From assembly GCA_046331465.1 (NCBI GenBank), contig JAXLQV010000003.1, positions 1,344,420 through 1,408,419 on the forward strand: a DNA stretch of 64,000 nucleotides, in the 5' to 3' direction. Both the position numbers and the translations under genes were made by a program. Source of the stretch: Thermoanaerobaculia bacterium. GTDB taxonomy: Bacteria; Acidobacteriota; Thermoanaerobaculia; UBA5066. Positions 4,889-52,317 of this stretch are shown here, piece by piece. The number at the start of each line of letters is the position of its first letter. Within the stretch, counting starts at the first letter, position 1. The notes beneath the pieces were generated by a model that was not told the origin of the DNA, did not search any database, and saw only the letters and a program-made list of their open reading frames with translations.

Positions 4889-4948
4889 GCGCGGACTCTA
4901 AGCCCGCCGGGCGCCCTGGAAAAGGCTGAGCCTCCGGAAACGGGCATG

Positions 4949-4978
4949 GGCGGGAGGGGGCGGCTGCCCCCTCCCGCC
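4949..4978 (-). terminator. Putative intrinsic terminator hairpin downstream of tricorn protease gene
   Basis: Perfect 12-bp GC stem ggcgggaggggg / ccccctcccgcc with 6-nt loop, 15 bp past the tricorn gene stop (4993); short U-containing tract follows on minus-strand transcript. Confidence 0.45.
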
Positions 4979-4992
4979 GGACGGAGGACTCC

Positions 4993-26535: not shown

Positions 26536-28389
26536 TCACGGGGCGACCATCGCCTCCCAGACGGCGCGCGACATCTTCCGCGTCGCCTCGACGACCGCCT
26601 TCCGCCCCTCTTCGTTCGCGCCGAAGTCGGTCGCGAGGAGGACGAGGACGTACTCGCGCCCGTCGGGGAGGCGGACGACGGCCGAGTCGTGCTGCACCTT
26701 CGAGATGGTGCCGGTCTTGTGCGCGACGACGGCGCCCGCCTGCTTCGGGATGCCGGCCGGGATCTGGTCGTTGAACTCCTGCGCCGCGAGGATCTCGAAC
26801 GCGATGCGGCGCGACTCGGCCGAGAGCTTCGGCGTCCTCACGGCGGCCTCCATCAGCGCGGCCAGCCCGTCGGCGTCCGTCTCGTTCGAGATCCCGGCCT
26901 CATAGGCCTTCGTGTCCTCGACCATCCTCCGCACCTTCAGGGTCGGCGCGCCCAGCGCGTCGACGAAGCGCTGGACGTCCTTCGGCGGGCAGAGGCCGAG
27001 CATCAGGTTCGTCGCGACGTTCGAGGAGCGGACGATCATCTCCCGGGCGACGAAGTCGAGCCGCGCCGTCCCGCCGAGGAAGGGCGCGATCCGGTCATCG
27101 CCCCCCTTCTCGAGCTCGACGCGGAACGCGGAGCCGTCGACCATGCTCGGGAAGCAGTCGACGACGGGGACGCCGGTCGAGAGGGAGAGCGACCCCTCGT
27201 CGATCCTCCGGAGCGCCTCGAGGAGGACGGCCGTCTTCATCGTCGACGCCGCGTGCATCACGGTCGCCGCGTTCCGCTTCACCGTCACGCCGGTGCCGAG
27301 GTCCTTCACGACGATCCCGAACGTCGCCTTCGTCCCGGCGGCGATCGCGTCGAGCTCCTTCCCGAGCGCCTCGGCCTTCGCCTTCGTCAGGCCGGAGGGG
27401 CGCGGGGCGCCGGGGAGGGCGGCGAGGCGGCGGGCGTAGCGGAAGCGGGGCGCGAGCCGCTCGCTCTCGAAGGCCGTCTCCTTCGTCGACGGCACGCCGT
27501 ACTGCGTCGCCTGGAGGACCTCGCCGTCGCCCGCCCAGAACGCGACGTGGTCGATCTTCTCGGGAGTGCCGAAGAAGAGGAGGTCGCCCGGGGCGAGCTG
27601 GTCGCGCCGCACGGGGACGAGCTGCGGGTCGCGGAAGCACATCTCGGAGCTGTTGCGGAGGAGGAGGACCCCGTGCCTCTCGAGGACGCGCCAGACGAGG
27701 CCGGAGCAGTCGAAGCCCCACGGCGTCGTCCCGCCCCAGGTGTAGGGGGCGCCGAGGAAGCGGCGGGCCATCGCGAGCCAGGAGGCGGGGTCGAGGACGG
27801 GGGGCGCCTCGCGCGGACGCTCTGGGGCGACGTCGTCCGCCGAGACGAAGCCGTTCCGCCCGTCGGGGAGGAGGACCTCGCGCCAGGCGTGCTTCTCGGC
27901 CTCGAGCGTCCGGAGGCCTCCGAGCCGCGCGCCGAGCGGCGCGGTCGCGAGCGGGGGGGATTTCTCGAAGCTCGGCTCGCGGTAGACGTGCGCGAGGTTC
28001 GACGTCACCTCGAGCGGCTCCGCCGACGGGTCGGGGACCCCGGGGCGGAGGGCCGCGGCCTCGATCCAGCCGCGCGAGCCCGAACGGAGCTTCGCCCAGA
28101 CGAATCGCCCCTCGGCGCGAGAGGTCTCCACGGTCTCGCCGAGGATCGCCTGGTCGTCCACCGGCGCGAGCGTCTCCGGCCGCACGAGGAGGTTCGCGAA
28201 CGGGACGACGACGACCGCGGCGGAGGGGGCGGCCGCCTGCGGGCCGGGAGCCTGAGGGGCTGCGGCCGGAGCCGCGGCCTTCGACGCGGCCGTCGTCGCG
28301 GCCGGTGGCGTCTGCGCCGCGGCGGAGAGGGCGAGGAGGAACGCGAGGGGCGCGGCGAGGTGCGGCCGGGGAGCGCGGCGACGGCTCAT
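26536..28389 (-). CDS. Secreted tri-domain fusion: SH3b-like + NlpC/P60 (C40) peptidoglycan endopeptidase + class-A beta-lactamase-like serine hydrolase domain
   Basis: ATG at 28387-28389 in ORF 26536..29547; signal peptide; NlpC/P60 motifs GAPYTWGG...GFDCSGLV...GDLLFF...HVAF; C-terminal domain with class-A motifs STMK (SxxK), SSNVATN (SDN-like), KTG. Confidence 0.8.
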   Translation of the reverse strand: MSRRRAPRPHLAAPLAFLLALSAAAQTPPAATTAASKAAAPAAAPQAPGPQAAAPSAAVVVVPFANLLVRPETLAPVDDQAILGETVETSRAEGRFVWAKLRSGSRGWIEAAALRPGVPDPSAEPLEVTSNLAHVYREPSFEKSPPLATAPLGARLGGLRTLEAEKHAWREVLLPDGRNGFVSADDVAPERPREAPPVLDPASWLAMARRFLGAPYTWGGTTPWGFDCSGLVWRVLERHGVLLLRNSSEMCFRDPQLVPVRRDQLAPGDLLFFGTPEKIDHVAFWAGDGEVLQATQYGVPSTKETAFESERLAPRFRYARRLAALPGAPRPSGLTKAKAEALGKELDAIAAGTKATFGIVVKDLGTGVTVKRNAATVMHAASTMKTAVLLEALRRIDEGSLSLSTGVPVVDCFPSMVDGSAFRVELEKGGDDRIAPFLGGTARLDFVAREMIVRSSNVATNLMLGLCPPKDVQRFVDALGAPTLKVRRMVEDTKAYEAGISNETDADGLAALMEAAVRTPKLSAESRRIAFEILAAQEFNDQIPAGIPKQAGAVVAHKTGTISKVQHDSAVVRLPDGREYVLVLLATDFGANEEGRKAVVEATRKMSRAVWEAMVAP

Positions 28390-28407
28390 CGTGGGGATAA
28401 TCGTCGC

Positions 28408-29541
28408 ATGACCACGCCGCTGTCGCGCCGCGACCTCCTCGCCGTCTCCGGCTCCGTCGCCGCCTCCGCCCTCCTCCCGCGCCTCGCCGAGGCCGCGGCT
28501 CCGGCTCCCGCCGCCGCGACCGCGGCGACGCTCGACCTCGCGCCGATGCTCCTGAAGCTCCGGCACACCTGGACGATCTCGCGAAACTCCTCGAACGAGA
28601 AGAAGAACGGCCTCCTGACGCTGACGGCGGGCGGGATCACCGGCTACGGCGAGACCGCGGCGAACGTCCGCTACGGCCAGAGCTGGGAGAGCGGCGAGGC
28701 GGCCTTCGCGAAGGTGAAGGCGGCCTGCGCGGGGCTCTCGCCGTGGGAGCACCTCGCCTGGCTCGAGCGGGCCGAGGAGGCCGCGGGGGGCGACTCGCAG
28801 GTCGTCGCGGCGCTCGACATGGCACTCTGGGACTGGAAGGGAAAGGCGGTCGGCCAGCCCGTCTGGAGGCTCCTCGGCATCCCGACGGGGCGGATGGCGC
28901 AGACGACGTTCTCGATCGGCATCGACACGGCCGAGGCGATGAAGGAGAAGGTGAAGGAGGCGGAGCCCTATCCCCTCCTGAAGGTGAAGGTCGGGCTCGC
29001 GAACGACGAGGAGAACGTCACGGCGATCCGCTCCGTCACGAAGAAGCCGATCCGCGTCGACGCGAACGAGGGGTGGAAGAGCGCCGAGGAGGCGCTGAAG
29101 AAGATCGCCTGGCTGAAGACGATGGGGATCGAGTTCGTCGAGCAGCCGCTCCCGGCGGCGAAGAACGCCGAGATGAAGGCGGTGAAGGCCGGGTCGGCCC
29201 TCCCGCTCGTCGCGGACGAGTCGGTCCTCCACGTGAAGGACGTCCCCTCGCTCGTCGGCCTCTTCGACGGCGTGAACGCCAAGCTCGCCAAGTGCGGCGG
29301 GATCACCCGCGCGTACGAGCTCGCCGCGCTCGGCCGGGCGCTCGGCTTCAAGCTGATGCTCGGCTGCATGATCGAGTCGTCGCTCGGCATCGCGGCGGCC
29401 GTCGCCGTCGCGCCGCTCTTCGACTGGCTCGACCTCGACGGGAACCTGCTCGTCGCGAACGACCCGTGGAAGGGGCTGACGCTGAAGGAGGGGCGCTGGG
29501 AGCTCCCGGCGGCGCCGGGCCTCGGCGTCGTGCCGGCCTGA
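28408..29541 (+). CDS. L-Ala-D/L-Glu (dipeptide) epimerase, enolase superfamily (YkfB/YcjG-like), with predicted Tat signal peptide
   Basis: ATG 28408; RRDLLAVSGSVAASALLPRLAEAAAPA Tat-type signal; MR/MLE fold with conserved KVK(V)G, D-x-N-E, E, D, K metal/base residues; 377 aa. Confidence 0.8.
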   Translation: MTTPLSRRDLLAVSGSVAASALLPRLAEAAAPAPAAATAATLDLAPMLLKLRHTWTISRNSSNEKKNGLLTLTAGGITGYGETAANVRYGQSWESGEAAFAKVKAACAGLSPWEHLAWLERAEEAAGGDSQVVAALDMALWDWKGKAVGQPVWRLLGIPTGRMAQTTFSIGIDTAEAMKEKVKEAEPYPLLKVKVGLANDEENVTAIRSVTKKPIRVDANEGWKSAEEALKKIAWLKTMGIEFVEQPLPAAKNAEMKAVKAGSALPLVADESVLHVKDVPSLVGLFDGVNAKLAKCGGITRAYELAALGRALGFKLMLGCMIESSLGIAAAVAVAPLFDWLDLDGNLLVANDPWKGLTLKEGRWELPAAPGLGVVPA

Positions 29542-29560
29542 CGGCACCCGCGACGGCCTC

Positions 29561-31177
29561 CTAGGGGGCCTCGTCCTCCTCCGGCGGCGGGACGAACGGG
29601 CGGAGCTTTTCCGCGAGCTCGAGACCGCGCCGGATCACCTCGTTCCAGGGGAAGAGGGCGCCGGGGTCGGGCTTGCGCCCGGGGGCGACGTGCTGGTGGC
29701 CGGCGATCCAGGGGGCCTCGAGGCCGAGCTGCGCCGTCAGGACGCCGACGACCCGCACGACCGTCTCGACCTGGGCGCGGGTGAAGGGATAGCGGTTTCC
29801 GTCGCCCGTGATCTCGACCCCGACCGAGTCGCGGTTCAGGACGGTGCGGCCGTGGAGGTCCGAGGAGCCCGCGTGCCACGCCCGGTGCTCGAGCGAGACG
29901 AACTGCCAGAGCCGGCCGCTCCTCCCGACGAGGAAGTGCGAGGAGACGAAGCTTGCCGGGTCGAGGAAGAGCGAGATGCACGTCTCGTCCTCGTCCATCG
30001 CGGTGTGGTGGAGGACGAGCGTGTCGAGCGGCCGGATCTTCTCGGGGTGCCACCCTTCCCAGAAGGAGTTCGGCATCGGGACCAGGCAGCCGTCGTTCGG
30101 GTCGCCGCCCGCCCTCTCCCAGAGCTCCCAGAAGAGGCGGTCCGCGGGGCGGAAGACGCGCTCGAGGCCGGGCGCACCTCCCCTCGCCTCGAGCGGCGTC
30201 ACCTCGAGGCGCGCGAGCGCCGGCGCGAGGGGCCGTTCCGCCGAGAGGTCGATGCGGGGGCGGTCGGGGAGGTCCCGCGACCACTCGTCGACGATCTCCC
30301 TCGCGATCTCGCCCATCGCGCGGTTCGCGCTCACGGCGGCGCCGGGCTTGGTCGGGATCCGGTCGGCGAACATCGCGAAGACGAACGTCCCCTTCGGCGT
30401 CGCGAGGACCCCCGAGTCGACCCTCACTCCGCTCATCGTCCCGGTCTTGCCGGCCCAGGAGGTCCCGGGGCGCGAGGCGAGGAGGCGCGGGATCCGGTCG
30501 GCCGTCCTCGGGTTCGCCGCGAGGCGCATCGCGACGCGGCTCGACTCCCTGTCGAGGAGCGTCCCGGTCGCGGCGCGACGCCAGAGCTCGGCGGTGTCGC
30601 GCGGCGTCATCCGGCCGAGGGGCTTCCAGGGGACGTCCTCCTCGGGGGAGCCGAGGTCGGGGATCCGCCCGACGAGCTCGATCCCGGCGAGCCCGAGCTC
30701 CGCCATGCGGCAGTTCACCGCCTCGGCGCCGAAGGCGTCAATGAAGTGGTTCGCGGCGGTGTTGTCCGAGAGCGCCATCATGAGACGCAGGAGGTCCCTC
30801 TCCGTCGGCGCGAGCCACGGCTCGAACTCGTCGAGGACCCCCGAGCCGGCGGCCACGGATCGGGGCGTCAGGCGCCAGCGCTGCTCGAGGTCGAGCGTCC
30901 CCTCGCGCTGCCGCGCGAGCGCCTCGACGAGGAGCGCGAGCTTGACGACGCTCGCCCCCTCGAACGTCTCCGTGTCCCGCCACCGGAGCTCCCGGCCGCT
31001 CTCGACGTGGAGGGCGACGATCCCCATCCGCGCGCCGCTCTCCTCCGCCCGCCGCGCGACGCGCCGGGCGAGCGTCTCGGACGCGGGGCGAACGGAGAGG
31101 CCCGGGGGTGGGGCGGTGGAGCAGGCGGCGAGGAGGAGGAGGAGCGCGGCGAGCGCCGCGGCCGGGCGGCAGGTCAC
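29561..31177 (-). CDS. Lipoprotein fusion: class-A beta-lactamase-like domain + N-acetylmuramoyl-L-alanine amidase (Amidase_2, AmpD/AmiD-like)
   Basis: GTG 31175-31177 overlapping GGDEF gene stop; lipobox LLLLLAACS; N-domain SVVK / SDNTAAN / KTGT class-A motifs; C-domain AmpD signature (HHTA...AWHAG...GVEI...GHQHVAPGRKPDPG). Confidence 0.8.
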   Translation of the reverse strand: MTCRPAAALAALLLLLAACSTAPPPGLSVRPASETLARRVARRAEESGARMGIVALHVESGRELRWRDTETFEGASVVKLALLVEALARQREGTLDLEQRWRLTPRSVAAGSGVLDEFEPWLAPTERDLLRLMMALSDNTAANHFIDAFGAEAVNCRMAELGLAGIELVGRIPDLGSPEEDVPWKPLGRMTPRDTAELWRRAATGTLLDRESSRVAMRLAANPRTADRIPRLLASRPGTSWAGKTGTMSGVRVDSGVLATPKGTFVFAMFADRIPTKPGAAVSANRAMGEIAREIVDEWSRDLPDRPRIDLSAERPLAPALARLEVTPLEARGGAPGLERVFRPADRLFWELWERAGGDPNDGCLVPMPNSFWEGWHPEKIRPLDTLVLHHTAMDEDETCISLFLDPASFVSSHFLVGRSGRLWQFVSLEHRAWHAGSSDLHGRTVLNRDSVGVEITGDGNRYPFTRAQVETVVRVVGVLTAQLGLEAPWIAGHQHVAPGRKPDPGALFPWNEVIRRGLELAEKLRPFVPPPEEDEAP

Positions 31178-32967
31178 GCGGGGGCGTCCTCCTCGGGCGG
31201 GGCGGAGACGATCCGGTTCTTGCCGGTCGTCTTCGCCTCGTAGAGCGCGGCGTCGGCGCGCTTGACGACCACGTCCGCGTGCGGCGCGGCGGGGTGGGTC
31301 GTCGTCGCGACGCCGGCGCTGATCGTGACCTGGAGGCGGAGCCGCTCGGCGGCGCTCCCGTCGCCCGCCGGGAAGCGCGGGAGGTCGTAGAAGGCGTCCG
31401 TCTCGACGGCGTGGCGGATCCGCTCGGCGACGATCGCGGCGCCCGCGGCGTCGGTGTCGGGGAGGACGGCCAGGAACTCCTCGCCCCCCCAGCGCCCGAC
31501 GAGGTCGCAGGAGCGGAGCGCGGAGCGGAGGACGAGCGCCGTCCGCCGGAGCATCTCGTCGCCCGTGTGGTGGCCGTGCTCGTCGTTGAAGACCGAGAAG
31601 TCGTCGATGTCGATCATGACGACGGAGAGGGGCGGCGCCGGCCGCATCTCCTCGGCCTCCCCCCGGGAGAGGGCGAAGGCGCCGGAACGCCGGCGGAGCC
31701 GCTCCCACTCGCGCGCCAGCGCCTCCTCCGTGGCGCGCCGGTTCGGCAGGCCGGTCAGGTAGTCGGTCCTCGCGGAGGTGACGAGCGTCGTCACGTCGTG
31801 GAACGTCGCGAGCTGGAGGAGCCCGGAGGGGAGCCGGACGGCCCGGATCGCCATCTGCACGTCCCTCCGCTCGCCGCCCGGCAGGGCGAGCGCCGTCTCG
31901 AACGCCTCGGGCGACGCCGAGGCGAGGAGCCGCGCGAGGCGCGCCCGCTCGGGGGGCGGGACGAGCTCGAGGAAGAGCCGGCGCCCGACGAGCTCGGCCC
32001 GCGTCGTCCCGGCGAGGCGGACCGCCGCGTCGTTGGCGTGGACGACGAACCCGTCGCGGAGCGTCACGAGGGCCTGCCCGGCGTCGGAGAGCGCCTCCAT
32101 GAGCGCCGTCTTCTCGAGGAGCTCGGCACGGCGGCGCGCCTCCTCGCGTCCCCGCTGGAGCGCCTGGCCCACCAGCGGGGCGAGCGTCCCGAGGAGCTCG
32201 GCGTCGGCCGCGTCGTGCTCGACGCCTCCCGAGGCCCAGACGACGAGGGCGCCGAGGTCCGCGCCGAGCGGGGCGCCGAGCCACGAGGTCGACGGGACCG
32301 GAGCGGAGGCGAGCCGGCCCGCGGCCCGCTCCGCCTCCCAGGCCGCGGGACCGAGGCTGGCCGGCTCCCCGTCCGCGAGGATCCGCCCGGCCACGGCCCA
32401 CATCGCGTCCCGCACGTCCTCCCCGAGGCTCTCGGGAGCCGAGTAGAGGAGCTCGACGCGCGCCGTCTCGGGGTCGAGGCCGACGACGGCGAAGCAGGGC
32501 GCCGGGACGAGCCGCGCGAGGAGCGCGTGCGCGACCGGGAAGAGCTCGGCCGGCGACGGCGACTCGCGGACGCTCCGGAGGAGCGCGAGGAGGCAGTCGT
32601 GGACGGCCGCCGCCCGCCGCTCCGCCGTCACGTCGCGCGCCGCGACGGCGAGCCCTCCCGCCGTCGGCGAGAGAGAGAGCTCGGCGAAGAAGATCGACCC
32701 GTCGACCCGGCGGTGCCGGACGACGCCCTGGAACCCCTCCGCGAGCGGTTCCGGGAGGGGGGGCGGCGCCCCCGGCCGGGAAACGACGAGGTCGCGGAGG
32801 AGGACGTTCCCGAGGGAGCCGTCGGGAGCCCCGTGCAGCGCGTGGAACGCCGCGTTCGCCCACGTGATGCGGCCCGAAGCGTCCGCGACGGCGAGTGCCG
32901 TCCCGGCCGCGGCGAAGGCGCGCGCGAAGACCTCTCCCGCCGTCATCGTTCCGTTCGTCGCGAGCAT
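31174..32967 (-). CDS. Diguanylate cyclase (GGDEF) with N-terminal PAS/GAF-type sensor domains
   Basis: 597 aa; RWGGEEF active-site motif, I-site-like RxxD; stop overlaps downstream amidase start. Confidence 0.8.
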   Translation of the reverse strand: MLATNGTMTAGEVFARAFAAAGTALAVADASGRITWANAAFHALHGAPDGSLGNVLLRDLVVSRPGAPPPLPEPLAEGFQGVVRHRRVDGSIFFAELSLSPTAGGLAVAARDVTAERRAAAVHDCLLALLRSVRESPSPAELFPVAHALLARLVPAPCFAVVGLDPETARVELLYSAPESLGEDVRDAMWAVAGRILADGEPASLGPAAWEAERAAGRLASAPVPSTSWLGAPLGADLGALVVWASGGVEHDAADAELLGTLAPLVGQALQRGREEARRRAELLEKTALMEALSDAGQALVTLRDGFVVHANDAAVRLAGTTRAELVGRRLFLELVPPPERARLARLLASASPEAFETALALPGGERRDVQMAIRAVRLPSGLLQLATFHDVTTLVTSARTDYLTGLPNRRATEEALAREWERLRRRSGAFALSRGEAEEMRPAPPLSVVMIDIDDFSVFNDEHGHHTGDEMLRRTALVLRSALRSCDLVGRWGGEEFLAVLPDTDAAGAAIVAERIRHAVETDAFYDLPRFPAGDGSAAERLRLQVTISAGVATTTHPAAPHADVVVKRADAALYEAKTTGKNRIVSAPPEEDAPA

Positions 32968-33011
32968 TCCCCAAAAGGATACGGCGTCCGGCGGGCAGAC
33001 GGTTCACTAGA

Positions 33012-34154
33012 ATGAATGGGTTGACGGCCGAGACACCTCCCTCCCCGGTCCCCTCCGGCCGGCTCGCCGCCCTCGACCTCTTCCGGGGCGCGACGGTGGC
33101 CGCGATGCTCTTCGTGAACAACCCGGGGAGCTGGTCGCACATCCTGCCGCCGTTCGAGCACGCCGAGTGGAACGGCTGCACCCCGACGGACCTCGTCTTC
33201 CCGTTCTTCCTCTTCATCGTCGGCACGGCCTCGGTCCTCTCGCTCGGGAAGCGCGCCGCTCAGGGGGCGAGCCGCGGGGCGCTCGCGCGGCACGCGGTGC
33301 GGCGGGGCGCGACGATCGTCCTCGTCGGCTGGGCGCTCACCGCCTTCCCGTTCAACCTGCAGCGTCTCCTGCACCTCCGGATCCCGGGCGTCCTCCCGCG
33401 CATCGGGGTCGTCTACGCGCTCGGCGCGCTGCTCCTCGTCGCCGCGCCGGTGCGCCGGAAGGCCCTCTTCCTCGGACTCGCCACGGCGCTCCTCCTCGCC
33501 CTCCACACGGCGCTCCTCTCCCTGCCGGGCTACGACCTGACGATCGAGGGGAACCTCCAGACGGCGATCGACCTCGCGCTCCTGAAGGGGCACCTCTGGA
33601 AGAAGGCGTGGGACCCGGAGGGGGTCCTCTCCACGCTGACCGCCCTCGCGACGATGCTGACGGGAGCGCTCACCGGGCTCCTCCTGACGTCGAAGGCCTC
33701 CCTGAAGGAGCGGCTCGCCGGCCTCGGCGCCGCGGGAGCCGCGGGCGTCGCGGCTGGGCTCGCGTGGCAGGCGCTCGGCCTCCCGCTCAACAAGGGGCTC
33801 TGGACCGGCTCCTACGTCCTCTTCACCTCGGGCGCGGCGTGCCTCTCTCTCCTCGCCGCGATCGCCGTCGTCGACCTCCTCGGCGTGAGGAGGCCCTTCG
33901 CCCCGCTCTTCACGTTCGGGACGAACCCGCTCCTCGCGTTCGTCCTCTCGGGCCTCCTCGCGAAGATCCTCGGCATGGTGAAGGTGGCCGGGGCGGACGG
34001 CCGCGTGTCGCTCACCTCGTTCCTCTACGAGCGGGTCTTCCTCCGCGTCGGCGACCCGTACCTCGCCTCGCATCTCCAGGCGCTCGCGTTCCTCGCGGTC
34101 ATCTGGGCGGTCCTCCGGTACTGCGAGAGGCGCGGCTGGTACTGGAAGGTCTGA
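33012..34154 (+). CDS. DUF1624 / HGSNAT-like (heparan-alpha-glucosaminide N-acetyltransferase catalytic-domain-like; NagX-like) multi-pass membrane acyltransferase family protein
   Basis: ATG 33012; LDLFRG motif near N-terminus, ~10 TM helices, typical of acyltransferase-3/DUF1624 NagX-like proteins found in amino-sugar loci. Confidence 0.65.
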   Translation: MNGLTAETPPSPVPSGRLAALDLFRGATVAAMLFVNNPGSWSHILPPFEHAEWNGCTPTDLVFPFFLFIVGTASVLSLGKRAAQGASRGALARHAVRRGATIVLVGWALTAFPFNLQRLLHLRIPGVLPRIGVVYALGALLLVAAPVRRKALFLGLATALLLALHTALLSLPGYDLTIEGNLQTAIDLALLKGHLWKKAWDPEGVLSTLTALATMLTGALTGLLLTSKASLKERLAGLGAAGAAGVAAGLAWQALGLPLNKGLWTGSYVLFTSGAACLSLLAAIAVVDLLGVRRPFAPLFTFGTNPLLAFVLSGLLAKILGMVKVAGADGRVSLTSFLYERVFLRVGDPYLASHLQALAFLAVIWAVLRYCERRGWYWKV

Positions 34155-34155
34155 C

Positions 34156-35157
34156 TCAGCCGGAGGCGAGGAGCCGGCGCGGCGTCTCCGAGGCGGCGTG
34201 CCGCGCCTCGTCGAACGTCGCCGCGCCGCAGGCAGCGAGCCTCTCCACGCAGTCGTCGAGGAGGGCGACGCTCCCCGCGAGGCCGCCCGAGGCGTTCCGG
34301 ACGGCCCCGGCGGAGACCGTGAGCGTCTCGCCCCAGACGGAGTAGTCCCCGTCGGCGAGGCCGGCGCAGGGCGCCGCGTCGCTGATCAGGACGAACCCCT
34401 CCGGCCCCTTGCAGCGCCGGACGAGGGCGAGCATCTCGGGGGAGAGGTGGTGGAGGTCGGCGATGACGTCGACCGTCGCGCCGTCGCGGAGGAGCCCCCA
34501 GCCGACCGGACCGGCGTCGCGGTGGTGGAGCGGCTTCATCGCGTTGCCGAAGTGGGTCATGTGCCGGGCGCCGCGCGCGAGCGCCGCGTCGAGCGTCGCG
34601 ACGTCGGCCTCGGTGTGGCCGAGGGCGACGACGAAGCCGCGGCGGACGAACGCCGAGACGAGGTCGAGGCCCCCCGGGATCTCGGGGGCCATCGTGACGA
34701 CGGGGCGGCCGGGGAGCTCGCCGACGGCGTCGAAGAACGCGTCGACGACCCGCGGGTCGCACCCGTCGAGGAGGCACGCGCGGTGGAGGGCGCCCGAGCG
34801 GTTCGGCGAGACGAACGGCCCCTCGAGGTGGATCCCGAGCGGCATCGCGCCGCGCCCGTCCCCCTCGCTCCGCGAGCGGACCCACGCGGAGAGGCGCGCG
34901 AGGAGCGGCGCGAGGTCGCCGAGGGGGACCGGGACGAGCGTCGGGACGAAGCCGGTCACGCCGCGCGCCTCGAGGCCGAGGGCGAGGCGGTCGAGCTCGG
35001 CCTCGCCCGCGGTCAGGACGTCGACGCCGAAGGCGCCGTGGATGTGGAGGTCGACGAGGCCGGCGGCGCTCAGGACGGCTCCTCCTCGAGGGCGCGTGCG
35101 ACGTTGCCGTTCCGCGCGGCGATCCACTCGCGCGCCTTCTCGAGAGGGAGGCTCCAC
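34156..35157 (-). CDS. nagA: N-acetylglucosamine-6-phosphate deacetylase (NagA), short-N-terminus variant; start uncertain (GTG 35157 or 35127)
   Basis: Metal-binding DLHIHG...HLEGP...HTEA...HFGNAM...D motifs of amidohydrolase NagA; N-terminal ~25 aa Arg-rich and overlaps murQ 3' end. Confidence 0.75.
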   Translation of the reverse strand: MEPPSREGARVDRRAERQRRTRPRGGAVLSAAGLVDLHIHGAFGVDVLTAGEAELDRLALGLEARGVTGFVPTLVPVPLGDLAPLLARLSAWVRSRSEGDGRGAMPLGIHLEGPFVSPNRSGALHRACLLDGCDPRVVDAFFDAVGELPGRPVVTMAPEIPGGLDLVSAFVRRGFVVALGHTEADVATLDAALARGARHMTHFGNAMKPLHHRDAGPVGWGLLRDGATVDVIADLHHLSPEMLALVRRCKGPEGFVLISDAAPCAGLADGDYSVWGETLTVSAGAVRNASGGLAGSVALLDDCVERLAACGAATFDEARHAASETPRRLLASG

Positions 35158-35915
35158 CGCTCCGAGACGAGTGCCAGGGGGAGCTCCCAGTCGGCCTTAA
35201 CGAGGAGCCGCTCGGCGGGCTCGGGGGGGAGCGCGAGGAGGCGGCCGAGGATGTCGATCGCGCGCCGCTTCAGCTTCGCGTTCGTCGGGCGCATCGCGAC
35301 CATCTCGCCCCGCCAGACGAGGCCGCGCCGCGCCATGACGGCCGTCGAGAGCATGTTGAGGACGAGCTTCTGCGCCGTCCCCGCCTTCATCCGCGTCGAG
35401 CCGCGGAGCACCTCGGGCCCCGTCTCGACGACGAGGGCGAGGTCGGCGATCGACGCGAGCCGCGAGCCGGGCACGCCGACGAGGGCGACCGCGAGCGCCC
35501 CGATTCCCTTCCCCCAGCGGAGCGCGCCGGCGACGTACGGCGTCGCGCCGCTCGCGGCGATCCCGAGGACGACGTCGCGCGCCGTGACGCCCGCCATCTT
35601 CACGTCCTCGGCCCCCTGCGCCTCGTCGTCCTCCGCCCCCTCGACGGCGTGGACGAGCGCCTCGCTTCCGCCGGCGACGATCCCGGTGACGAGGCGGGGG
35701 GGGACGCCGAAGGTCGGCGGGAGCTCCGAGGCGTCGAGGACGCCGAGCCGTCCGCTCGTCCCGGCGCCGGCGTTGATCCACTTCCCGCCGGCGTCGAGGC
35801 GCGCGGCGATCTCGTCGGCGGCGTGCGCGACCTCCGGGAGGATCCTCCCGACGGCGCGGACCGCCTCCAGGTCGGCCTCGTGGATCGCCGCGAGGAGGGC
35901 GAGCGTGTCGGTCAA
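35070..35915 (-). CDS. murQ: N-acetylmuramic acid 6-phosphate etherase MurQ (SIS domain)
   Basis: 281 aa; near-identical core motifs to E. coli MurQ (GAGTSGRLGVLDASELPPTFGV, HAVEGAEDD, RMKAGTAQKLVLNMLST); ATG overlaps kinase stop. Confidence 0.9.
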   Translation of the reverse strand: MTDTLALLAAIHEADLEAVRAVGRILPEVAHAADEIAARLDAGGKWINAGAGTSGRLGVLDASELPPTFGVPPRLVTGIVAGGSEALVHAVEGAEDDEAQGAEDVKMAGVTARDVVLGIAASGATPYVAGALRWGKGIGALAVALVGVPGSRLASIADLALVVETGPEVLRGSTRMKAGTAQKLVLNMLSTAVMARRGLVWRGEMVAMRPTNAKLKRRAIDILGRLLALPPEPAERLLVKADWELPLALVSERWSLPLEKAREWIAARNGNVARALEEEPS

Positions 35916-36847
35916 GGCGTCCCCTCGGCGAGGGCGAGCCGGATCGCGCCGATCTCCGGGACGTGCGCGGGCGGACCGAGGCGCGCCCGCGGCGCGCCCG
36001 CGAGGAGCCGCTCGCGCAGCGGGGCGAGGACGAGCTCGCCCGCGACGAAGACGCCGCCGACGGTCGCCACCGTCACCTCGTCCTGCGCGATGCCGAGCTT
36101 GCGGAGGACGGTGAGCGACGTGAGCGCGAGCTCGCCCGCCGCCCAGCGGAGGATCTCGAGGGCGATCCCGTCGCCGTCCCGGGCGGCGTCGAGGACGACC
36201 GGGAAGTAGGCCGCCACGTCGGTCGGCCCCGCGTCGGGACGGAAGAGCCTCCGCACCATCTCGACGGCCGACCGCGTCCCCTCCGTCGAGTGGAGCCCCT
36301 CGCGCATCTTCGTCCGCGGTCCGCGCCCGTCGACGTCGCGCGCGACGGCGGCGAGGCCGCGCCGCGCGATTTCGGAGGCGGAGCCCTCGTCGCCGATGAG
36401 CGCGCCCCAGCCGCCCGCCCGCTCCTCGAGGCCGTGGGAGTTCCGGCCGAAGCAGATCGCCCCCGTCCCCGCGATGAGGACGGCGCCCGAGTCGGCGACC
36501 GGGTCGCGGAGCGCCCCGGCGAGCGCGATCCGCGCGTCCGTCGTGACCCGGATCCTGCCGGCGCCGTAGACGGCCTCGAGCGCCGAGACGAGGCGCCCCT
36601 TCATCGCCGACGCCTCGACGCCGGCGAGGCCGCAGGAGACGACGGCGACGTCGGCGCGCGCCGCACCGGCCGCCTCGAGGGCATCGTCGACGGCCTCCGT
36701 GACGGACTGGACGAGGCGCGGGACGGGGACGGTCGAGGCGTTCGCGGGGCCCGACGCGCCGCGGCCGAGGGCGAGGAGGTCGGAGGCGGTGACGACGGCG
36801 CGGGTCCGGGTGCCGCCGCCGTCGACGCCGACGTAGAGGCTGGGCAT
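35912..36847 (-). CDS. BadF/BadG/BcrA/BcrD-type ATPase family sugar kinase, predicted N-acetylglucosamine/N-acetylmuramic acid kinase (MurK/NagK-like)
   Basis: ATG 36845-36847; LYVGVDGGGTRTR phosphate-1 motif; ASKHA fold; genomic coupling to murQ. Confidence 0.75.
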   Translation of the reverse strand: MPSLYVGVDGGGTRTRAVVTASDLLALGRGASGPANASTVPVPRLVQSVTEAVDDALEAAGAARADVAVVSCGLAGVEASAMKGRLVSALEAVYGAGRIRVTTDARIALAGALRDPVADSGAVLIAGTGAICFGRNSHGLEERAGGWGALIGDEGSASEIARRGLAAVARDVDGRGPRTKMREGLHSTEGTRSAVEMVRRLFRPDAGPTDVAAYFPVVLDAARDGDGIALEILRWAAGELALTSLTVLRKLGIAQDEVTVATVGGVFVAGELVLAPLRERLLAGAPRARLGPPAHVPEIGAIRLALAEGTP

Positions 36848-41666: not shown

Positions 41667-41827
41667 AAAGCCTCTCCTCTCCTTCCTTGCCCCGAAATGG
41701 ACCATTAGAAAAACCTTGGAAGATAGACGGTCGGGAGCCTAGCGCCTCGAGGTCAGGAATTCCAGCGGTGAAGTCTCCCGGGCCGATGGCCTTCGGCTGG
41801 GGAAAGGGCTGCCAGAATCGGAACGCG
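41667..41827. promoter_or_regulatory. AT-enriched divergent promoter region (TonB-dependent receptor / GDPD gene)
   Basis: Only markedly AT-richer stretch in window (aaatggaccattagaaaaaccttggaagatagacgg) lying between divergent gene starts. Confidence 0.3.
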
Positions 41828-42619: not shown

Positions 42620-42680
42620 GAAGTGCGCCGGCCCCGGCGCGATAATGAGATTTCCGTTCAATTCGGAGGGAGGATTCCAC

Positions 42681-51513: not shown

Positions 51514-52317
51514 TCAGGGCGAGGGGAGCTTCGCCGGGTCGCCGAGGAGGAGGGACGGGTCGACGCGGGCCCCGCGCCACTTGAGGCCGAAGTGGAGGTG
51601 CGGGCCGCTGACGCGGCCGGTCGCGCCGGAGAGGCCGAGGACGTCTCCCCGCGCGACCCGCTGGCCCGCCTTCACCCCGATCTTCGAGAGGTGCATGTAC
51701 ATCGACACGAGCCCTCCGCCGTGGTCGACGAAGACGCTCCTCCCGGCGAAGAAGTGGTCGCCGACGAGGACGACGAGCCCCTTCTCGGTCGCGAGGACGG
51801 GAGTTCCCGTCGCGGCCCTGTAGTCGGCGCCGCCGTGGGGGGAACGGGGCTCGCCGTTGAAGACGCGCCGCATCCCGAAGTTGCGGGGGGCGGGCGCCTT
51901 CGCGAGCGGCGGGGCGAACGGGAGCGAGAAGACCGGCTCCGTCCGGAGGGAGAAGACGGGCGCGATCTCCTTCCGCTCGCGCTCGACGCGGCGCAGGTCC
52001 TTCTCGGAGAGCTTCACCTTCCGCGGGTCGACCGTGACCTTCTCCTCCGCGTAGGGCGGGGGGAGGACGCGGAGCGTTGCCGACTCGCGAACGCCCTGAC
52101 GCTCGCGGTGGATCGCGAGCGTCCCGGCCTCGGTGCCCAGGTCGACCGGGTAGTAGCAGGCGCCGCCGAGCGGCTTCCACGTCTCGCGGGCGTCGCCGCA
52201 GAGCGTGATGCCGTCTCCCGGCCACCGGACGAGCCCTCCCGGCACGACGTCGACGACCCGTTCGGCGCCGAGCGCCGGGGCCGCGAGGGCAAGGGCGAGG
52301 AGGAGGGCGCGCTTCAC
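51514..52317 (-). CDS. M23 family metallopeptidase (LytM/lysostaphin-like)
   Basis: GTG 52315-52317 overlapping radical-SAM gene stop (GTGA); signal peptide; HGGADY...D and YMHLS...GPHLHFG zinc-ligand motifs. Confidence 0.8.
   Translation of the reverse strand: MKRALLLALALAAPALGAERVVDVVPGGLVRWPGDGITLCGDARETWKPLGGACYYPVDLGTEAGTLAIHRERQGVRESATLRVLPPPYAEEKVTVDPRKVKLSEKDLRRVERERKEIAPVFSLRTEPVFSLPFAPPLAKAPAPRNFGMRRVFNGEPRSPHGGADYRAATGTPVLATEKGLVVLVGDHFFAGRSVFVDHGGGLVSMYMHLSKIGVKAGQRVARGDVLGLSGATGRVSGPHLHFGLKWRGARVDPSLLLGDPAKLPSP

What the first reader, a model, noticed from the sequence alone, without database searches (positions are those of the whole stretch)
26536..36847. Composite peptidoglycan-fragment salvage locus: exported murein-peptide processing enzymes next to a cytoplasmic MurNAc/GlcNAc catabolic operon
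Within 10 kb the sequence encodes, in order: SH3b-NlpC/P60 + beta-lactamase-like fusion; a Tat-signal L-Ala-D/L-Glu epimerase; a beta-lactamase-like + AmpD/AmiD amidase lipoprotein; a GGDEF cyclase; a DUF1624/HGSNAT-like membrane acyltransferase; then nagA, murQ and a BadF-type sugar kinase with overlapping stop/starts. Established knowledge gives MurK (kinase) -> MurQ (etherase) -> NagA for MurNAc to GlcN-6-P. NlpC/P60 (YkfC) plus L-Ala-D/L-Glu epimerase (YkfB) is the known murein-tripeptide degradation pair in Bacillus. Here every peptide-processing step appears exported, and two steps carry an extra class-A beta-lactamase-like domain. This looks like a scavenging system for foreign or own cell-wall fragments rather than the canonical cytoplasmic AmpG/AmpD/LdcA/Mpl recycling route, none of which is present.
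Basis: partly seen in the sequence, partly recalled or inferred. Interest (0 to 1): 0.8.

Follow-up and report, generated by a model that had tools for sequence, protein, structure and literature searches.

The report
Acidobacterial cell-wall fragment salvage cluster
A Thermoanaerobaculia (Acidobacteriota) genome carries a conserved gene cluster that most likely takes bacterial cell-wall fragments apart outside the cytoplasm and then burns the sugar N-acetylmuramic acid inside; it is a new variant of salvage routes already described or proposed in other bacteria.

Summary
All eight genes sit at the stated coordinates and every stated domain was confirmed. The block is not a chance juxtaposition. 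In 52 acidobacterial species genomes, the core is kept almost always: NagX-like membrane protein, lipoprotein (PBP-A-like domain + AmiD-type amidase), Tat-exported dipeptide epimerase, and SH3b-NlpC/P60 + PBP-A-like enzyme. The kinase-MurQ-NagA operon adjoins the core in 26 of 37 evaluable genomes.

- The "beta-lactamase-like" domains lack Glu166 and are closest to the DD-peptidase PBP-A.
- The NlpC/P60 enzyme lacks the Asp (and apparently the Tyr) that restrict YkfC to free stem peptides, so it looks lysin-like.
- The block is five transcription units, not one operon.
- A PAS-GGDEF cyclase is a recurrent member.
- A periplasmic route of this logic was already proposed for Bacteroides.
- The absence of AmpG, LdcA and Mpl is shown only for this window.

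Verdict: a real, coherent peptidoglycan-fragment salvage locus and a new variant of a known kind. No biochemistry exists, and no cultured carrier was among the genomes retrieved. Own-wall recycling and scavenging of foreign wall cannot be told apart, though the receptor link favours scavenging.

The parts
26536..28389 (-). g1: exported (Sec signal) protein with two SH3b domains, an NlpC/P60 gamma-D-Glu-diamino acid endopeptidase domain and a C-terminal PBP-A-like serine DD-peptidase domain (617 aa)
   Evidence: Pfam. PDB sequence hits for the N-terminal half are 3npf, 3pvq and 3h41; for the C-terminal half, PBP-A 2j7v. The AF2 model has pLDDT 77. Its Foldseek best hits are PBP-A (TMt 0.82) and BT_1314. 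Invariant residues in the family are C228, H281, Q293, N246, S382xxK385, S455-S-N457 and K558-T-G560; there is no conserved Glu166.
28408..29541 (+). g2: Tat-exported dipeptide (L-Ala-D/L-Glu type) epimerase of the enolase superfamily (377 aa)
   Evidence: Pfam finds MR_MLE_N and MR_MLE_C. The best PDB hit is 3iji (B. thetaiotaomicron BT1313), 238 bits over residues 45-375. The KxK, DLDG and Arg motifs are kept. The twin-arginine motif is present in essentially all of 43 homologues. A 100% identical protein is named 'dipeptide epimerase [Thermoanaerobaculia bacterium]' by NCBI.
28396..28401 (+). GATAAT hexamer 6 nt upstream of the g2 ATG, inside the 18-bp gap between the divergent g1 and g2 starts. 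It is a candidate -10 element for a leaderless transcript.
   Evidence: (C/G)ATAAT lies upstream of the ATG in 33 of 33 related loci, exactly 6 nt upstream in 30 of them (7 nt in two, 10 nt in one), in genomes of about 73% GC. The function is inferred, not shown. The consensus promoter scan found nothing.
29561..31177 (-). g3: lipoprotein with an N-terminal PBP-A-like serine DD-peptidase domain and a C-terminal AmiD/AmpDh2-type N-acetylmuramoyl-L-alanine amidase domain (538 aa)
   Evidence: Pfam finds Beta-lactamase2 and Amidase_2. PDB hits are 4ewf, LRA-5 and PBP-A for the N-terminal half, and AmpDh2, AmiD and AmpD for the C-terminal half. Invariant residues are S76xxK79, S137-D-N139, K244-x-G246, H390/H391, E455, H494, K502 and D504. 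The lipobox Cys is conserved.
31174..32967 (-). g4: cytoplasmic PAS-GAF-PAS-GGDEF diguanylate cyclase. Its stop overlaps the g3 start (GTGA).
   Evidence: Pfam and NCBIfam. GGEEF and an RxxD site five residues upstream can be read in the translation. The junction was read. Shorter PAS-GGDEF genes are embedded in distant versions of the cluster.
33012..34154 (+). g5: polytopic membrane protein of the HGSNAT/NagX (DUF1624) family. It is either a candidate transmembrane N-acetyltransferase for periplasmic glucosamine-type residues or a MurT-like MurNAc transporter.
   Evidence: Pfam HGSNAT_cat scores 34.7 bits. NCBIfam NagX scores 117 bits, below the 480 cut-off. His50 in PF-x-HAEW-x-G-x-TPTD is invariant in 42 homologues. 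The gene is adjacent to g3 in 43 of 44 evaluable loci. The proposed NagX role comes from PMC9007349.
34156..35076 (-). g6: NagA-like GlcNAc-6-phosphate deacetylase reduced to the catalytic barrel (about 306 aa). The start is uncertain: CTG at 35075 or GTG at 35157.
   Evidence: NCBIfam nagA scores 187.6 bits (cut-off 225.65) and matches profile positions 41-346 of 380. The HxH, HLEGPF, GHT, THFGNAM and SDA motifs are read in the translation. The same short form, 305 aa, was called in L001. The junction was read.
35070..35915 (-). g7: MurNAc-6-phosphate etherase MurQ (281 aa)
   Evidence: NCBIfam PRK05441 scores 328 bits (cut-off 168), PRK12570 scores 315 (cut-off 255), and TIGR00274 scores 289 (cut-off 302).
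35912..36847 (-). g8: BadF-type sugar kinase, MurK-like (MurNAc/GlcNAc kinase) (311 aa)
   Evidence: Pfam BcrAD_BadFG 1e-37. The best PDB hit is 8zo3, 'N-acetylmuramic acid/N-acetylglucosamine kinase', 127 bits over the full length. The TTGA overlap with g7 was read.
36939..38795 (+). g9: PMT_2 glycosyltransferase-like membrane protein with TPR repeats. It lies between the receptor and the kinase operon on the opposite strand and is probably not part of the pathway.
   Evidence: Pfam. It is present in the distant group and in L047, but absent from the close relatives in which the receptor directly abuts the kinase.
38916..41705 (-). TonB-dependent outer-membrane receptor (CarboxypepD_reg type, 929 aa).
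   Evidence: Pfam. It co-varies with the kinase-MurQ-NagA module. Among loci with at least 9 kb of upstream flank, 19 have both, 10 have neither, 1 has murQ only and 0 have the receptor only. In eight relatives a different receptor paralogue ends about 65-280 bp upstream of the kinase on the same strand.

Best explanation
This is a conserved acidobacterial locus for salvage of peptidoglycan fragments, split between the cell envelope and the cytoplasm.

Proposed steps in the envelope:
1. The lipoprotein g3 strips stem peptides from MurNAc with its AmiD/AmpDh2-type zinc amidase domain.
2. The PBP-A-like serine domains of g3 and g1 act as DD-carboxypeptidase/endopeptidase. They trim terminal D-Ala and open cross-links.
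3. The NlpC/P60 domain of g1 cuts the gamma-D-Glu-diamino acid bond. Because g1 lacks the residues that demand a free L-Ala N-terminus, it can probably act before or after the amidase.
4. Either order yields L-Ala-D-Glu. The Tat-exported epimerase g2 converts it to L-Ala-L-Glu, which ordinary dipeptide transporters and peptidases can use.
5. The NagX-like membrane protein g5 either re-acetylates de-N-acetylated amino sugars with cytoplasmic acetyl-CoA or carries MurNAc inward.

Proposed steps for the sugar: it enters through a TonB-dependent receptor, is phosphorylated by the MurK-like kinase g8, loses its lactyl ether to MurQ (g7), and is deacetylated by the NagA-like g6 to GlcN-6-P.

The co-transcribed PAS-GAF-PAS-GGDEF cyclase g4 links the hydrolases to c-di-GMP signalling in an unknown way.

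Shown here: the domain families, conserved catalytic residues, export signals and co-location. Inferred: every substrate, the order of steps, the roles of g5, g4 and the receptor, and whether the wall material is foreign or the cell's own.
For: - Family assignments for all genes.
- Nearest solved relatives are the functionally matching enzymes. g1 matches BT_1314/YkfC and PBP-A. g2 matches the characterised epimerase BT1313 at 238 bits, with KxK, DxD and Arg kept. g3 matches AmpDh2/AmiD. g8 matches a MurNAc/GlcNAc kinase.
- Catalytic residues are invariant across 14-sequence family alignments.
- PBP-A is a DD-carboxypeptidase/endopeptidase (PMC11189452).
- Export signals are conserved: the Tat motif in essentially all of 43 homologues, the lipobox and the Sec signal.
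- Co-location with g3 in 52 acidobacterial species genomes: g5 43/44, g2 46/48, g1 43/45, murQ 26/37.
- The receptor co-varies with the MurQ module: 19 loci have both, 10 have neither, 1 is discordant.
- An analogous periplasmic route, with an amidase fused to a D-Ala-removing hydrolase followed by YkfC and the epimerase, was proposed for B. thetaiotaomicron (PMC4600125).
- Kinase plus MurQ is an established MurNAc route (PMC5790795).
Against: - There is no experimental datum for any of these proteins, and no cultured carrier was found. All loci are from MAGs.
- Unrelated genes are equally syntenic (Epimerase/DUF1731 30/34). Gene order is generally conserved in this clade, so synteny alone is weak evidence.
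- The presence or absence of the MurQ module may reflect only one or two evolutionary events.
- The MurQ module is absent within 10 kb of the core in 11 of 37 evaluable species.
- No glycosidase (NagZ, NamZ, lysozyme), no clear inner-membrane sugar permease, no NagB and no dipeptide transporter is in the window.
- g2 scores higher against the N-acetyl-D-Glu racemase DgcA model (235 bits) than against YcjG (152 bits), and is below the cut-off of every equivalog model.
- g6 is below the NagA cut-off and lacks the small beta-sandwich domain.
- g1's lysin-like residues fit a wall-remodelling enzyme as well as a salvage enzyme.
Confidence: 0.62

Rival explanations
1. The core genes (g3, g1, g2, g5 and the GGDEF gene) are housekeeping enzymes for remodelling and turnover of the cell's own wall. 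They would be autolysins and DD-peptidases for growth, division or shape, under c-di-GMP control. Their position next to the MurQ operon would then be inherited gene order rather than a shared pathway.
For: - g1 has the lysin-type Asn instead of the Asp that limits YkfC to free peptides.
- AmpDh2-type amidases and PBP-A-type enzymes act on polymeric wall (PMC11189452).
- The core persists without the MurQ module in 10 of 30 long-flank loci.
- Unrelated genes are equally syntenic.
- A cyclase is co-transcribed with g3.
Against: - A dipeptide epimerase has no role in remodelling. It only makes sense for consuming L-Ala-D-Glu, and it is kept in 46 of 48 loci with a conserved Tat signal.
- The NagX-like partner points to amino-sugar salvage.
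- Where present, the MurQ module and receptor always sit on the g5 side of the core.
Confidence: 0.2
2. The class A-like domains are true beta-lactamases or beta-lactam sensors. The locus would be an antibiotic defence or sensing system coupled to c-di-GMP.
For: Pfam Beta-lactamase2 and the NCBIfam bla_class_A model hit both proteins. The SxxK, S(D/S)N and KTG motifs are invariant.
Against: - The scores are 87 and 89 bits against a cut-off of 200.
- There is no conserved Glu166/Asn170.
- The nearest structures are PBP-A, a DD-peptidase, and LRA-5. LRA-5 has no meaningful beta-lactamase activity unless Glu166 is introduced (PMC12777564).
- Fusion to wall hydrolase domains and linkage to an epimerase are not explained by this reading.
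Confidence: 0.05
3. g2 is not an L-Ala-D/L-Glu epimerase. It would be an N-acyl-D-glutamate racemase (DgcA-like) or an epimerase for another dipeptide. The exported part of the locus would then handle free D-Glu derivatives or other D-amino-acid peptides rather than murein dipeptide.
For: The best NCBIfam hit is DgcA at 235 bits, against 152 bits for the YcjG model. Both are below their cut-offs. One source names relatives 'L-Ala-D/L-Glu epimerase / N-acetyl-D-glutamate racemase'.
Against: - The best solved relative is BT1313, crystallised with L-Ala-D-Glu and described as a characterised YkfB-like epimerase (PMC4600125).
- The DLDG (DxD) motif is present. To my knowledge this motif binds the free dipeptide ammonium group.
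- The gene sits next to an NlpC/P60 enzyme, as in the Bacillus ykfB/ykfC and Bacteroides BT1313/BT1314 pairs.
Confidence: 0.1

Closest known systems
Proposed periplasmic peptidoglycan recycling route of Bacteroides thetaiotaomicron: BT1087, BT1314 (YkfC), BT1313 (epimerase), BT1086 (Xu et al. 2015, PMC4600125)
   Same: The logic and order are the same. An exported MurNAc-L-Ala amidase is fused to a second hydrolase domain thought to remove D-Ala. A two-SH3b NlpC/P60 gamma-D-Glu-diamino acid endopeptidase follows, then a YkfB-like epimerase making L-Ala-L-Glu for import. g2 is about 45% identical to BT1313, and g1's N-terminal half is closest to BT_1314.
   Different: - The amidase here is a zinc Amidase_2 (AmiD/AmpDh2 type), not an NlpC/P60-type AmiA.
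- The partner domain is a PBP-A-like serine peptidase, not an alpha/beta hydrolase, and it is present twice (also on the endopeptidase).
- g1 lacks the Tyr/Asp pair of recycling YkfCs.
- The epimerase carries an explicit, conserved Tat signal, whereas the BT1313 crystal chain shows no N-terminal extension.
- A GGDEF gene and a NagX-like gene are embedded.
- The genes are clustered with MurK-MurQ-NagA.
Bacillus subtilis ykfABCD (LD-carboxypeptidase YkfA, epimerase YkfB, endopeptidase YkfC)
   Same: An NlpC/P60 endopeptidase is paired with an L-Ala-D/L-Glu epimerase, and a carboxypeptidase activity is associated with them (PMC2954226 listed).
   Different: - No S66 LD-carboxypeptidase is present. 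A class A-like serine domain is fused instead.
- The enzymes here are exported in a diderm envelope.
- The substrate-restricting residues of YkfC are not kept.
Tannerella forsythia murTKQ MurNAc utilisation operon and its adjacent muropeptide-scavenging operon
   Same: A BadF-type kinase and the MurQ etherase are encoded together with a membrane uptake component for exogenous MurNAc (PMC5790795, PMC5388701). One paper states that NagX-family proteins are distantly related to TfMurT (PMC9007349).
   Different: - g8 is closer to the MurNAc/GlcNAc kinase of PDB entry 8zo3 than to TfMurK, which gave no hit at E<=0.001.
- NagA is in the operon here.
- No AmpG is in the window.
- The family assignment of TfMurT is described differently in PMC5790795 (sodium symporter superfamily) and could not be checked here.
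PBP-A of Thermosynechococcus elongatus (class A beta-lactamase-like DD-peptidase)
   Same: It is the best structural match of the C-terminal domain of g1 (TMt 0.82) and among the top PDB sequence hits of the class A-like domains of both g1 and g3. The SxxK, SxN and KTG motifs are kept and Glu166 is absent.
   Different: PBP-A is a stand-alone protein. Here the domain is fused to an NlpC/P60 endopeptidase or to an Amidase_2 amidase. Sequence identity is only about 22-25%. Substrate preference, such as for amidated peptides, is unknown.
E. coli AmiD / Pseudomonas aeruginosa AmpDh2 (outer-membrane lipoprotein amidases)
   Same: g3 has an Amidase_2 fold with zinc ligands and a catalytic Glu conserved, plus a lipoprotein signal.
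   Different: g3 carries an extra N-terminal PBP-A-like domain and a conserved linker of about 80 residues. The AmpD equivalog model scores 106 bits, below the 143 cut-off.
NagX of Shewanella and other chitin/glucosamine utilisers
   Same: g5 has the HGSNAT catalytic domain with a conserved His, and it neighbours NagA and a sugar kinase.
   Different: It scores only 117 bits against a cut-off of 480. The context is muramic acid and peptidoglycan rather than chitin. No NagP permease is nearby.

Membership tests
YkfC / dipeptidyl-peptidase VI (recycling-type gamma-D-Glu-L-diamino acid endopeptidase) | Two N-terminal SH3b domains followed by an NlpC/P60 domain | tested here: met
   The best PDB sequence hits are 3npf, 3pvq and 3h41 over residues 51-294. 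The AF2 model shows two beta domains plus NlpC/P60. Foldseek hits BT_1314 and 3h41.
YkfC / dipeptidyl-peptidase VI (recycling-type gamma-D-Glu-L-diamino acid endopeptidase) | Catalytic Cys-His-polar triad | tested here: met
   C228, H281 and Q293 are invariant in 14 family members.
YkfC / dipeptidyl-peptidase VI (recycling-type gamma-D-Glu-L-diamino acid endopeptidase) | The Tyr (SH3b1) and Asp (Cys+18) that bind the free amine of N-terminal L-Ala. PMC4600125 describes them as strictly conserved in recycling enzymes. | tested here: not met
   The Asp position is an invariant Asn (N246), as in DvLysin. This alignment is ungapped from the catalytic Cys. The Tyr position aligns to Ser/Thr/Asn/Glu; that alignment is less certain.
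L-Ala-D/L-Glu (dipeptide) epimerase, enolase superfamily | MR_MLE N- and C-terminal domains, the KxK and second catalytic Lys, and the metal ligands | tested here: met
   Pfam. The alignment to 3iji, 1jpd and 1tkk keeps KVKVG, VDANEGW, EQP, ADES and NAKLAKCGG.
L-Ala-D/L-Glu (dipeptide) epimerase, enolase superfamily | The DxD motif for the dipeptide ammonium group, and the Arg that binds the Glu side chain (roles recalled from the literature on YkfB/YcjG) | tested here: met
   DLDG is aligned to DLDG of BT1313, YcjG and 4gfi. 'ISR' is aligned to 'IAR' of YcjG. The roles of these residues are from my own knowledge and were not tested.
L-Ala-D/L-Glu (dipeptide) epimerase, enolase superfamily | A score above a curated equivalog cut-off | tested here: not met
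   PRK15129 scores 152 (cut-off 343), A_G_epim_Thtga 116 (cut-off 500), and DgcA 235 (cut-off 400).
Class A beta-lactamase | The SxxK, S(D)N and K(T/S)G motifs | tested here: met
   These motifs are invariant in both the g1 and g3 families.
Class A beta-lactamase | Glu166 (with Asn170) in the omega loop for deacylation, and a score above the family cut-off | tested here: not met
   No conserved Glu is at the aligned position. In g3 it is I172 or D174; in g1 it is C/M489 or V490. bla_class_A scores 87 and 89 bits against a cut-off of 200.
PBP-A-like DD-peptidase | A class A-like fold without Glu166, with DD-carboxypeptidase/endopeptidase activity | tested here: inconclusive
   The fold and motifs match (TMt 0.82). 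The activity cannot be tested with these tools.
AmiD/AmpDh2-type Amidase_2 lipoprotein | An Amidase_2 domain with zinc ligands and a catalytic Glu, plus a lipoprotein signal | tested here: met
   Pfam 1.7e-28. AmpDh2 and AmiD are the best PDB hits. H390/H391, E455, H494 and D504 are invariant and the lipobox Cys is conserved.
MurQ (MurNAc-6-phosphate etherase) | A score above the curated cut-offs | tested here: met
   PRK05441 scores 328 (cut-off 168) and PRK12570 scores 315 (cut-off 255). TIGR00274 scores 289, just under its cut-off of 302.
NagA (GlcNAc-6-phosphate deacetylase) | A full-length match above the cut-off, including the small beta-sandwich domain | tested here: not met
   TIGR00221 scores 187.6 against a cut-off of 225.65 and matches only profile positions 41-346 of 380. 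The metal and catalytic motifs are present in the translation.
MurK (BadF-type MurNAc/GlcNAc kinase) | The BcrAD_BadFG fold and closest similarity to a characterised MurNAc kinase | tested here: met
   Pfam 1e-37. The best PDB hit is 8zo3, 'N-acetylmuramic acid/N-acetylglucosamine kinase', 127 bits. Sugar specificity was not tested.
NagX / HGSNAT transmembrane acetyltransferase | The HGSNAT catalytic domain with the acetyl-carrying His | tested here: met
   Pfam scores 34.7 against a cut-off of 22. His50 is invariant in 42 homologues. The NagX equivalog cut-off is not reached (117 against 480).
Diguanylate cyclase | The GG(D/E)EF active site and the RxxD inhibitory site | tested here: met
   Pfam GGDEF 1.1e-38. 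GGEEF and RSCD five residues upstream are read in the translation.
Single operon | All genes on one strand with short gaps | tested here: not met
   The block is five units on alternating strands. Only g4-g3 and g8-g7-g6 are coupled.

The most novel reading that the evidence does not exclude
The locus, together with its TonB-dependent receptor, is a dedicated 'muropeptide utilisation locus' that lets Thermoanaerobaculia feed on the cell walls of other, dead or living, bacteria. The two PBP-A-like fusions would be a new class of bifunctional wall-dismantling enzymes. They would resolve cross-links and D-Ala termini on the same polypeptide that then cuts the stem peptide or frees it from the glycan. 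The embedded PAS-GGDEF cyclase would couple the availability of wall fragments to c-di-GMP-controlled behaviour.
Probability: 0.25. Interest if true: 0.65.

Novelty: new variant of a known kind. Interest (0 to 1): 0.5.

Why it matters
Peptidoglycan is a large pool of carbon and nitrogen in microbial necromass, and how uncultured soil, sediment and wastewater phyla use it is poorly known.

If the reading is right, a whole acidobacterial class uses an envelope-located route that differs from the E. coli AmpG/AmpD/LdcA/Mpl scheme. It would resemble the route only hypothesised for Bacteroides. That would make the hypothesis testable with a compact gene set.

The locus also offers two uncharacterised fusion enzymes (DD-peptidase + DL-endopeptidase, and DD-peptidase + amidase) and a Tat-exported enolase-superfamily epimerase. 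It shows as well that many 'class A beta-lactamase' annotations in environmental genomes are more likely wall peptidases than resistance genes.

Tried and rejected
- Chance juxtaposition is rejected. The four-gene core is kept in 43-46 of 44-48 evaluable acidobacterial species loci.
- A single-operon reading is rejected by strand layout.
- True beta-lactamase function is rejected as unlikely: there is no Glu166, scores are sub-threshold, and the nearest relatives are PBP-A and LRA-5.
- Strict YkfC identity for g1 is rejected.
- I looked for riboswitches or other RNA families, including c-di-GMP riboswitches, across the window and found none.
- The consensus promoter and terminator scan of 26-42 kb gave nothing above the shuffled expectation.
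- I looked for AmpG, NagZ, NamZ, LdcA, Mpl, AnmK, NagB or a dipeptide transporter among the other predicted genes I scanned in the window (about ten short ORFs were not scanned). None was found, only unrelated genes and several secreted peptidases.
- I tried to read the paper that first described TfMurT (PMC5075041), to settle whether g5 belongs to its family. It is not held. Two held papers disagree on the family.
- A literature search for MurQ or peptidoglycan recycling in Acidobacteria or Thermoanaerobaculia found nothing relevant.
- The third protein search (g2) returned only close relatives. It could not show whether Tat-signal dipeptide epimerases occur outside this clade.
- The genome scan used peptide patterns specific to the g3 family. 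More distant versions of the fusion outside Acidobacteriota would have been missed.

Full report
**What is in the sequence**

The window has about 73% G+C, so raw ORF lists are full of shadow frames. A codon-position GC plot and translations resolve eight genes that fill 26536-36847 exactly:

| Gene | Coordinates (strand) | Length |
|---|---|---|
| g1 | 26536-28389 (-) | 617 aa |
| g2 | 28408-29541 (+) | 377 aa |
| g3 | 29561-31177 (-) | 538 aa |
| g4 | 31174-32967 (-) | 597 aa |
| g5 | 33012-34154 (+) | 380 aa |
| g6 | 34156 to about 35076 (-) | about 306 aa |
| g7 | 35070-35915 (-) | 281 aa |
| g8 | 35912-36847 (-) | 311 aa |

They form five transcription units on alternating strands: g1 | g2 | g4-g3 | g5 | g8-g7-g6. 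Only g4/g3 (GTGA) and g8/g7 (TTGA) have overlapping stop and start codons. At g7/g6 only a CTG overlaps the stop, and the first canonical start of g6 is the GTG at 35157.

**Domain check**

- **g1:** NLPC_P60 plus Beta-lactamase2, with a weak SH3_16 hit.
- **g2:** MR_MLE_N and MR_MLE_C.
- **g3:** Beta-lactamase2 plus Amidase_2.
- **g4:** PAS-GAF-PAS-GGDEF, with GGEEF and an RxxD site.
- **g5:** HGSNAT_cat. NagX scores 117 bits against a cut-off of 480.
- **g6:** nagA scores 188 bits against a cut-off of 226. Only profile positions 41-346 of 380 are matched.
- **g7:** MurQ scores 328 bits against a cut-off of 168.
- **g8:** BcrAD_BadFG.

The export signals are real and conserved:

- g1 has an N-terminal hydrophobic Sec-type signal in all 14 aligned homologues.
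- g3 has a lipobox Cys in all full-length homologues.
- g2 has an S/T-R-R-x-L-L/I twin-arginine motif in essentially all of 43 homologues.

**Source organism**

A protein 100% identical to g2 is deposited as 'dipeptide epimerase [Thermoanaerobaculia bacterium]' on a 1.5-Mb MAG contig. Named homologues of g1 and g3 come from Holophagales, Thermoanaerobaculia, Vicinamibacteria or unclassified Acidobacteriota MAGs.

**Is the block more than chance?**

I aligned g3 with 13 homologues (A1) and scanned one genome per GTDB species. This returned 52 acidobacterial loci with the full PBP-A-like + Amidase_2 fusion. The other hits were the amidase domain alone in other, mostly gammaproteobacterial, genomes, plus one beta-lactamase-domain-only match in a Methylobacterium genome.

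A tblastn of all window proteins against these loci counts how often each gene lies next to g3, among loci with enough flank:

| Neighbour of g3 | Present / evaluable |
|---|---|
| g5 | 43 / 44 |
| g2 | 46 / 48 |
| g1 | 43 / 45 |
| murQ, all | 26 / 37 |
| murQ, g3 at least 70% identical | 11 / 11 |
| murQ, g3 about 55-68% identical | 15 / 26 |

Individual look-ups of g1 homologues agree:

- The whole block is syntenic at 74% identity (L001).
- Epimerase, PAS-GGDEF and g1 occur together at 55% identity (L003).
- One genome has g1 alone (L002).

One caution applies. An unrelated Epimerase/DUF1731 gene is just as syntenic (30/34). Gene order in this region is generally conserved, so synteny by itself is weak evidence of function. 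The stronger argument is that the conserved neighbours are functionally coherent.

The TonB-dependent receptor at 38916-41705 co-varies with the kinase-MurQ-NagA trio. Among 30 loci with at least 9 kb of upstream flank, the counts are:

| | Receptor present | Receptor absent |
|---|---|---|
| murQ present | 19 | 1 |
| murQ absent | 0 | 10 |

In the window and the distant group, an oppositely oriented PMT_2/TPR gene (g9) sits between the receptor and the kinase. In eight closer relatives a different receptor paralogue, 26-35% identical, ends about 65-280 bp upstream of the kinase on the same strand.

The pattern could reflect few evolutionary events. Even so, two receptor lineages in the same position argue for a functional link between outer-membrane uptake and MurNAc catabolism. 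That favours use of exogenous material.

**The GGDEF gene is a recurrent member**

In the window's clade, a 597-aa PAS-GAF-PAS-GGDEF gene is translationally coupled upstream of g3. In distant loci a PAS-GGDEF gene of about 290 aa follows g3 (L022). L037 has a PAS protein with a weak, degenerate GGDEF match after g3 and a clear PAS-GGDEF gene before g1; L003 also has one before g1.

**What the individual proteins are**

*g1.* The N-terminal half is closest in sequence and in predicted fold to the YkfC/DPP VI group: 3npf, 3pvq/4r0k (BT_1314) and 3h41. C228, H281 and Q293 are invariant.

Xu et al. [quoted passage not shown] They strictly conserve a Tyr in SH3b1 and an Asp 18 residues after the catalytic Cys. 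The wall lysin DvLysin has Ala and Asn at these positions.

In g1 the Asp position is an Asn (N246). It is invariant in the family, and the alignment there is ungapped. The Tyr position aligns to Ser/Thr/Asn/Glu, in a less certain alignment. So g1 works like a gamma-D-Glu-diamino acid endopeptidase, but it fails a defining feature of the recycling YkfC subgroup. It may also accept MurNAc-linked peptides or intact wall.

*The two 'beta-lactamase-like' domains.* They keep SxxK, S(D/S)N and KTG, but have no conserved Glu166/Asn170. They score 87-89 bits against the class A cut-off of 200. Their nearest solved relatives are:

- PBP-A of Thermosynechococcus (best Foldseek hit, TMt 0.82). It is a DD-carboxypeptidase/endopeptidase (PMC11189452).
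- LRA-5, which is inactive as a beta-lactamase unless Glu166 is introduced (PMC12777564).

They are therefore best read as DD-peptidase domains.

*g3 amidase half.* It is closest to the periplasmic lipoproteins AmpDh2 and AmiD. The zinc ligands and catalytic Glu are invariant.

*g2.* It is about 45% identical over 331 residues to BT1313 (3iji/3ijl/3ijq). The catalytic lysines, the metal ligands, the DLDG motif and an Arg aligned with that of YcjG are all kept. Its first 44 residues have no counterpart in the crystal chain and carry the Tat motif. It scores below every NCBIfam equivalog cut-off, and its best model is the N-acetyl-D-Glu racemase DgcA. The exact substrate is therefore inferred.

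*g8.* Its best solved relative is 8zo3, an N-acetylmuramic acid/N-acetylglucosamine kinase (127 bits, full length).

*g6.* It keeps the NagA metal and catalytic motifs but lacks the N- and C-terminal segments that form the small domain. The same short form was called in a relative.

*g5.* It keeps the family's acetyl-carrying His, invariant in 42 homologues. NagX has been proposed, from fitness data, to acetylate periplasmic glucosamine with cytoplasmic acetyl-CoA. The same paper says NagX is distantly related to the Tannerella MurNAc transporter TfMurT (PMC9007349). Another paper places TfMurT in the sodium symporter superfamily (PMC5790795). I could not resolve this.

**Most likely mechanism**

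In the envelope:

1. The g3 amidase frees stem peptides.
2. The PBP-A-like domains trim D-Ala and open cross-links.
3. g1 cuts gamma-D-Glu-mDAP.
4. Either order gives L-Ala-D-Glu, which the Tat-exported g2 turns into L-Ala-L-Glu for uptake by ordinary transporters.
5. g5 either re-acetylates amino sugars or imports MurNAc.

In the cytoplasm, the sugar goes through g8 (phosphorylation), then g7 (removal of the lactyl ether), then g6 (deacetylation) to GlcN-6-P. The receptor supplies the outer-membrane step.

Shown: families, catalytic residues, export signals and co-location. Inferred: all substrates, the order of steps, the roles of g5, g4 and the receptor, and whether the wall is foreign or the cell's own.

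Missing from the window are a glycosidase, NagB, a clear inner-membrane permease and a dipeptide transporter.

**Comparison with what is known**

- **Bacteroides thetaiotaomicron.** The closest precedent is the periplasmic route proposed, but not proven, for this organism. An amidase is fused to a putative D-Ala-removing hydrolase (BT1087), followed by YkfC (BT1314), the epimerase (BT1313) and import of L-Ala-L-Glu. The acidobacterial locus has the same logic with non-homologous parts for the amidase and the trimming domain. It also duplicates the trimming domain onto the endopeptidase, has an explicit Tat signal, and clusters with MurK-MurQ-NagA, a receptor, a NagX-like protein and a cyclase.
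- **Tannerella murTKQ.** This is the precedent for kinase-MurQ-based scavenging of exogenous MurNAc.
- **Acidobacteria.** I found no paper describing this locus or these fusions in the phylum.

**Verdict**

The locus is real, coherent and conserved. It is a new variant of a known kind of system and not categorically new. Interest is moderate. The fusions, the exported epimerase, the receptor and the c-di-GMP link give concrete experiments in a phylum with almost no wall-recycling data. Everything functional is still inference.

Noticed in passing
window 28396-28401 (and the same position in L001-L055): A (C/G)ATAAT hexamer lies upstream of the g2 ATG in 33 of 33 related loci, exactly 6 nt upstream in 30 of them (7 nt in two, 10 nt in one), although these genomes have about 73% G+C. 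In the window it sits in the 18-bp gap between the divergent g1 and g2 start codons. This suggests a -10 element driving a leaderless g2 mRNA, and possibly g1 from the opposite strand.
   Followed up: partly
window 34156-35157: The NagA-like gene encodes only the catalytic barrel (profile positions 41-346 of 380). A relative has the same 305-aa form. Its start has no canonical codon at the conserved overlap with murQ: it is CTG in the window.
   Followed up: partly
L037 12470-14782; also L003 5627-7933: In some distant versions of the cluster, a 770-aa protein is inserted between the g3-associated PAS-GGDEF gene and the epimerase. It has no Pfam match in L037. The L003 counterpart has only a weak Spermine_synth hit.
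   Followed up: no
L047 (CAWDOO010000004.1): This MAG is labelled 'uncultured Gammaproteobacteria' but carries the whole locus at 76-95% protein identity to the window, in the same gene order. The label or the binning is probably wrong.
   Followed up: no
window 2231-8316, 23990-25750, 42645-44864, 51514-52338: The window is rich in peptidases: an M12B reprolysin-like protein with a TIG domain, a 1107-aa tricorn/S41-like protease, SppA (S49), an S46 dipeptidyl-peptidase and an M23 peptidase. This fits a protein or necromass-degrading lifestyle.
   Followed up: no
L022 5709-8592; L003 618-3439; L037 5905-8797: Where the receptor-kinase-MurQ-NagA module is absent, a HlyD-like protein, a histidine-kinase ATPase protein and a sigma-54 response regulator lie directly beyond g5 (Pfam-confirmed in L022 and L003; in L037 three ORFs of matching sizes were not scanned). 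The same arrangement recurs in several genomes.
   Followed up: no
window 29561-31177, residues about 300-380 of g3: The linker between the PBP-A-like and amidase domains of g3 is highly conserved (RVF-x-x-x-DR-x-FW-x-x-W-x-x-AGG-x-x-x-DACL-x-P-x-PN-x-W). It has no Pfam match of its own and may be an extra structural or substrate-binding element.
   Followed up: no
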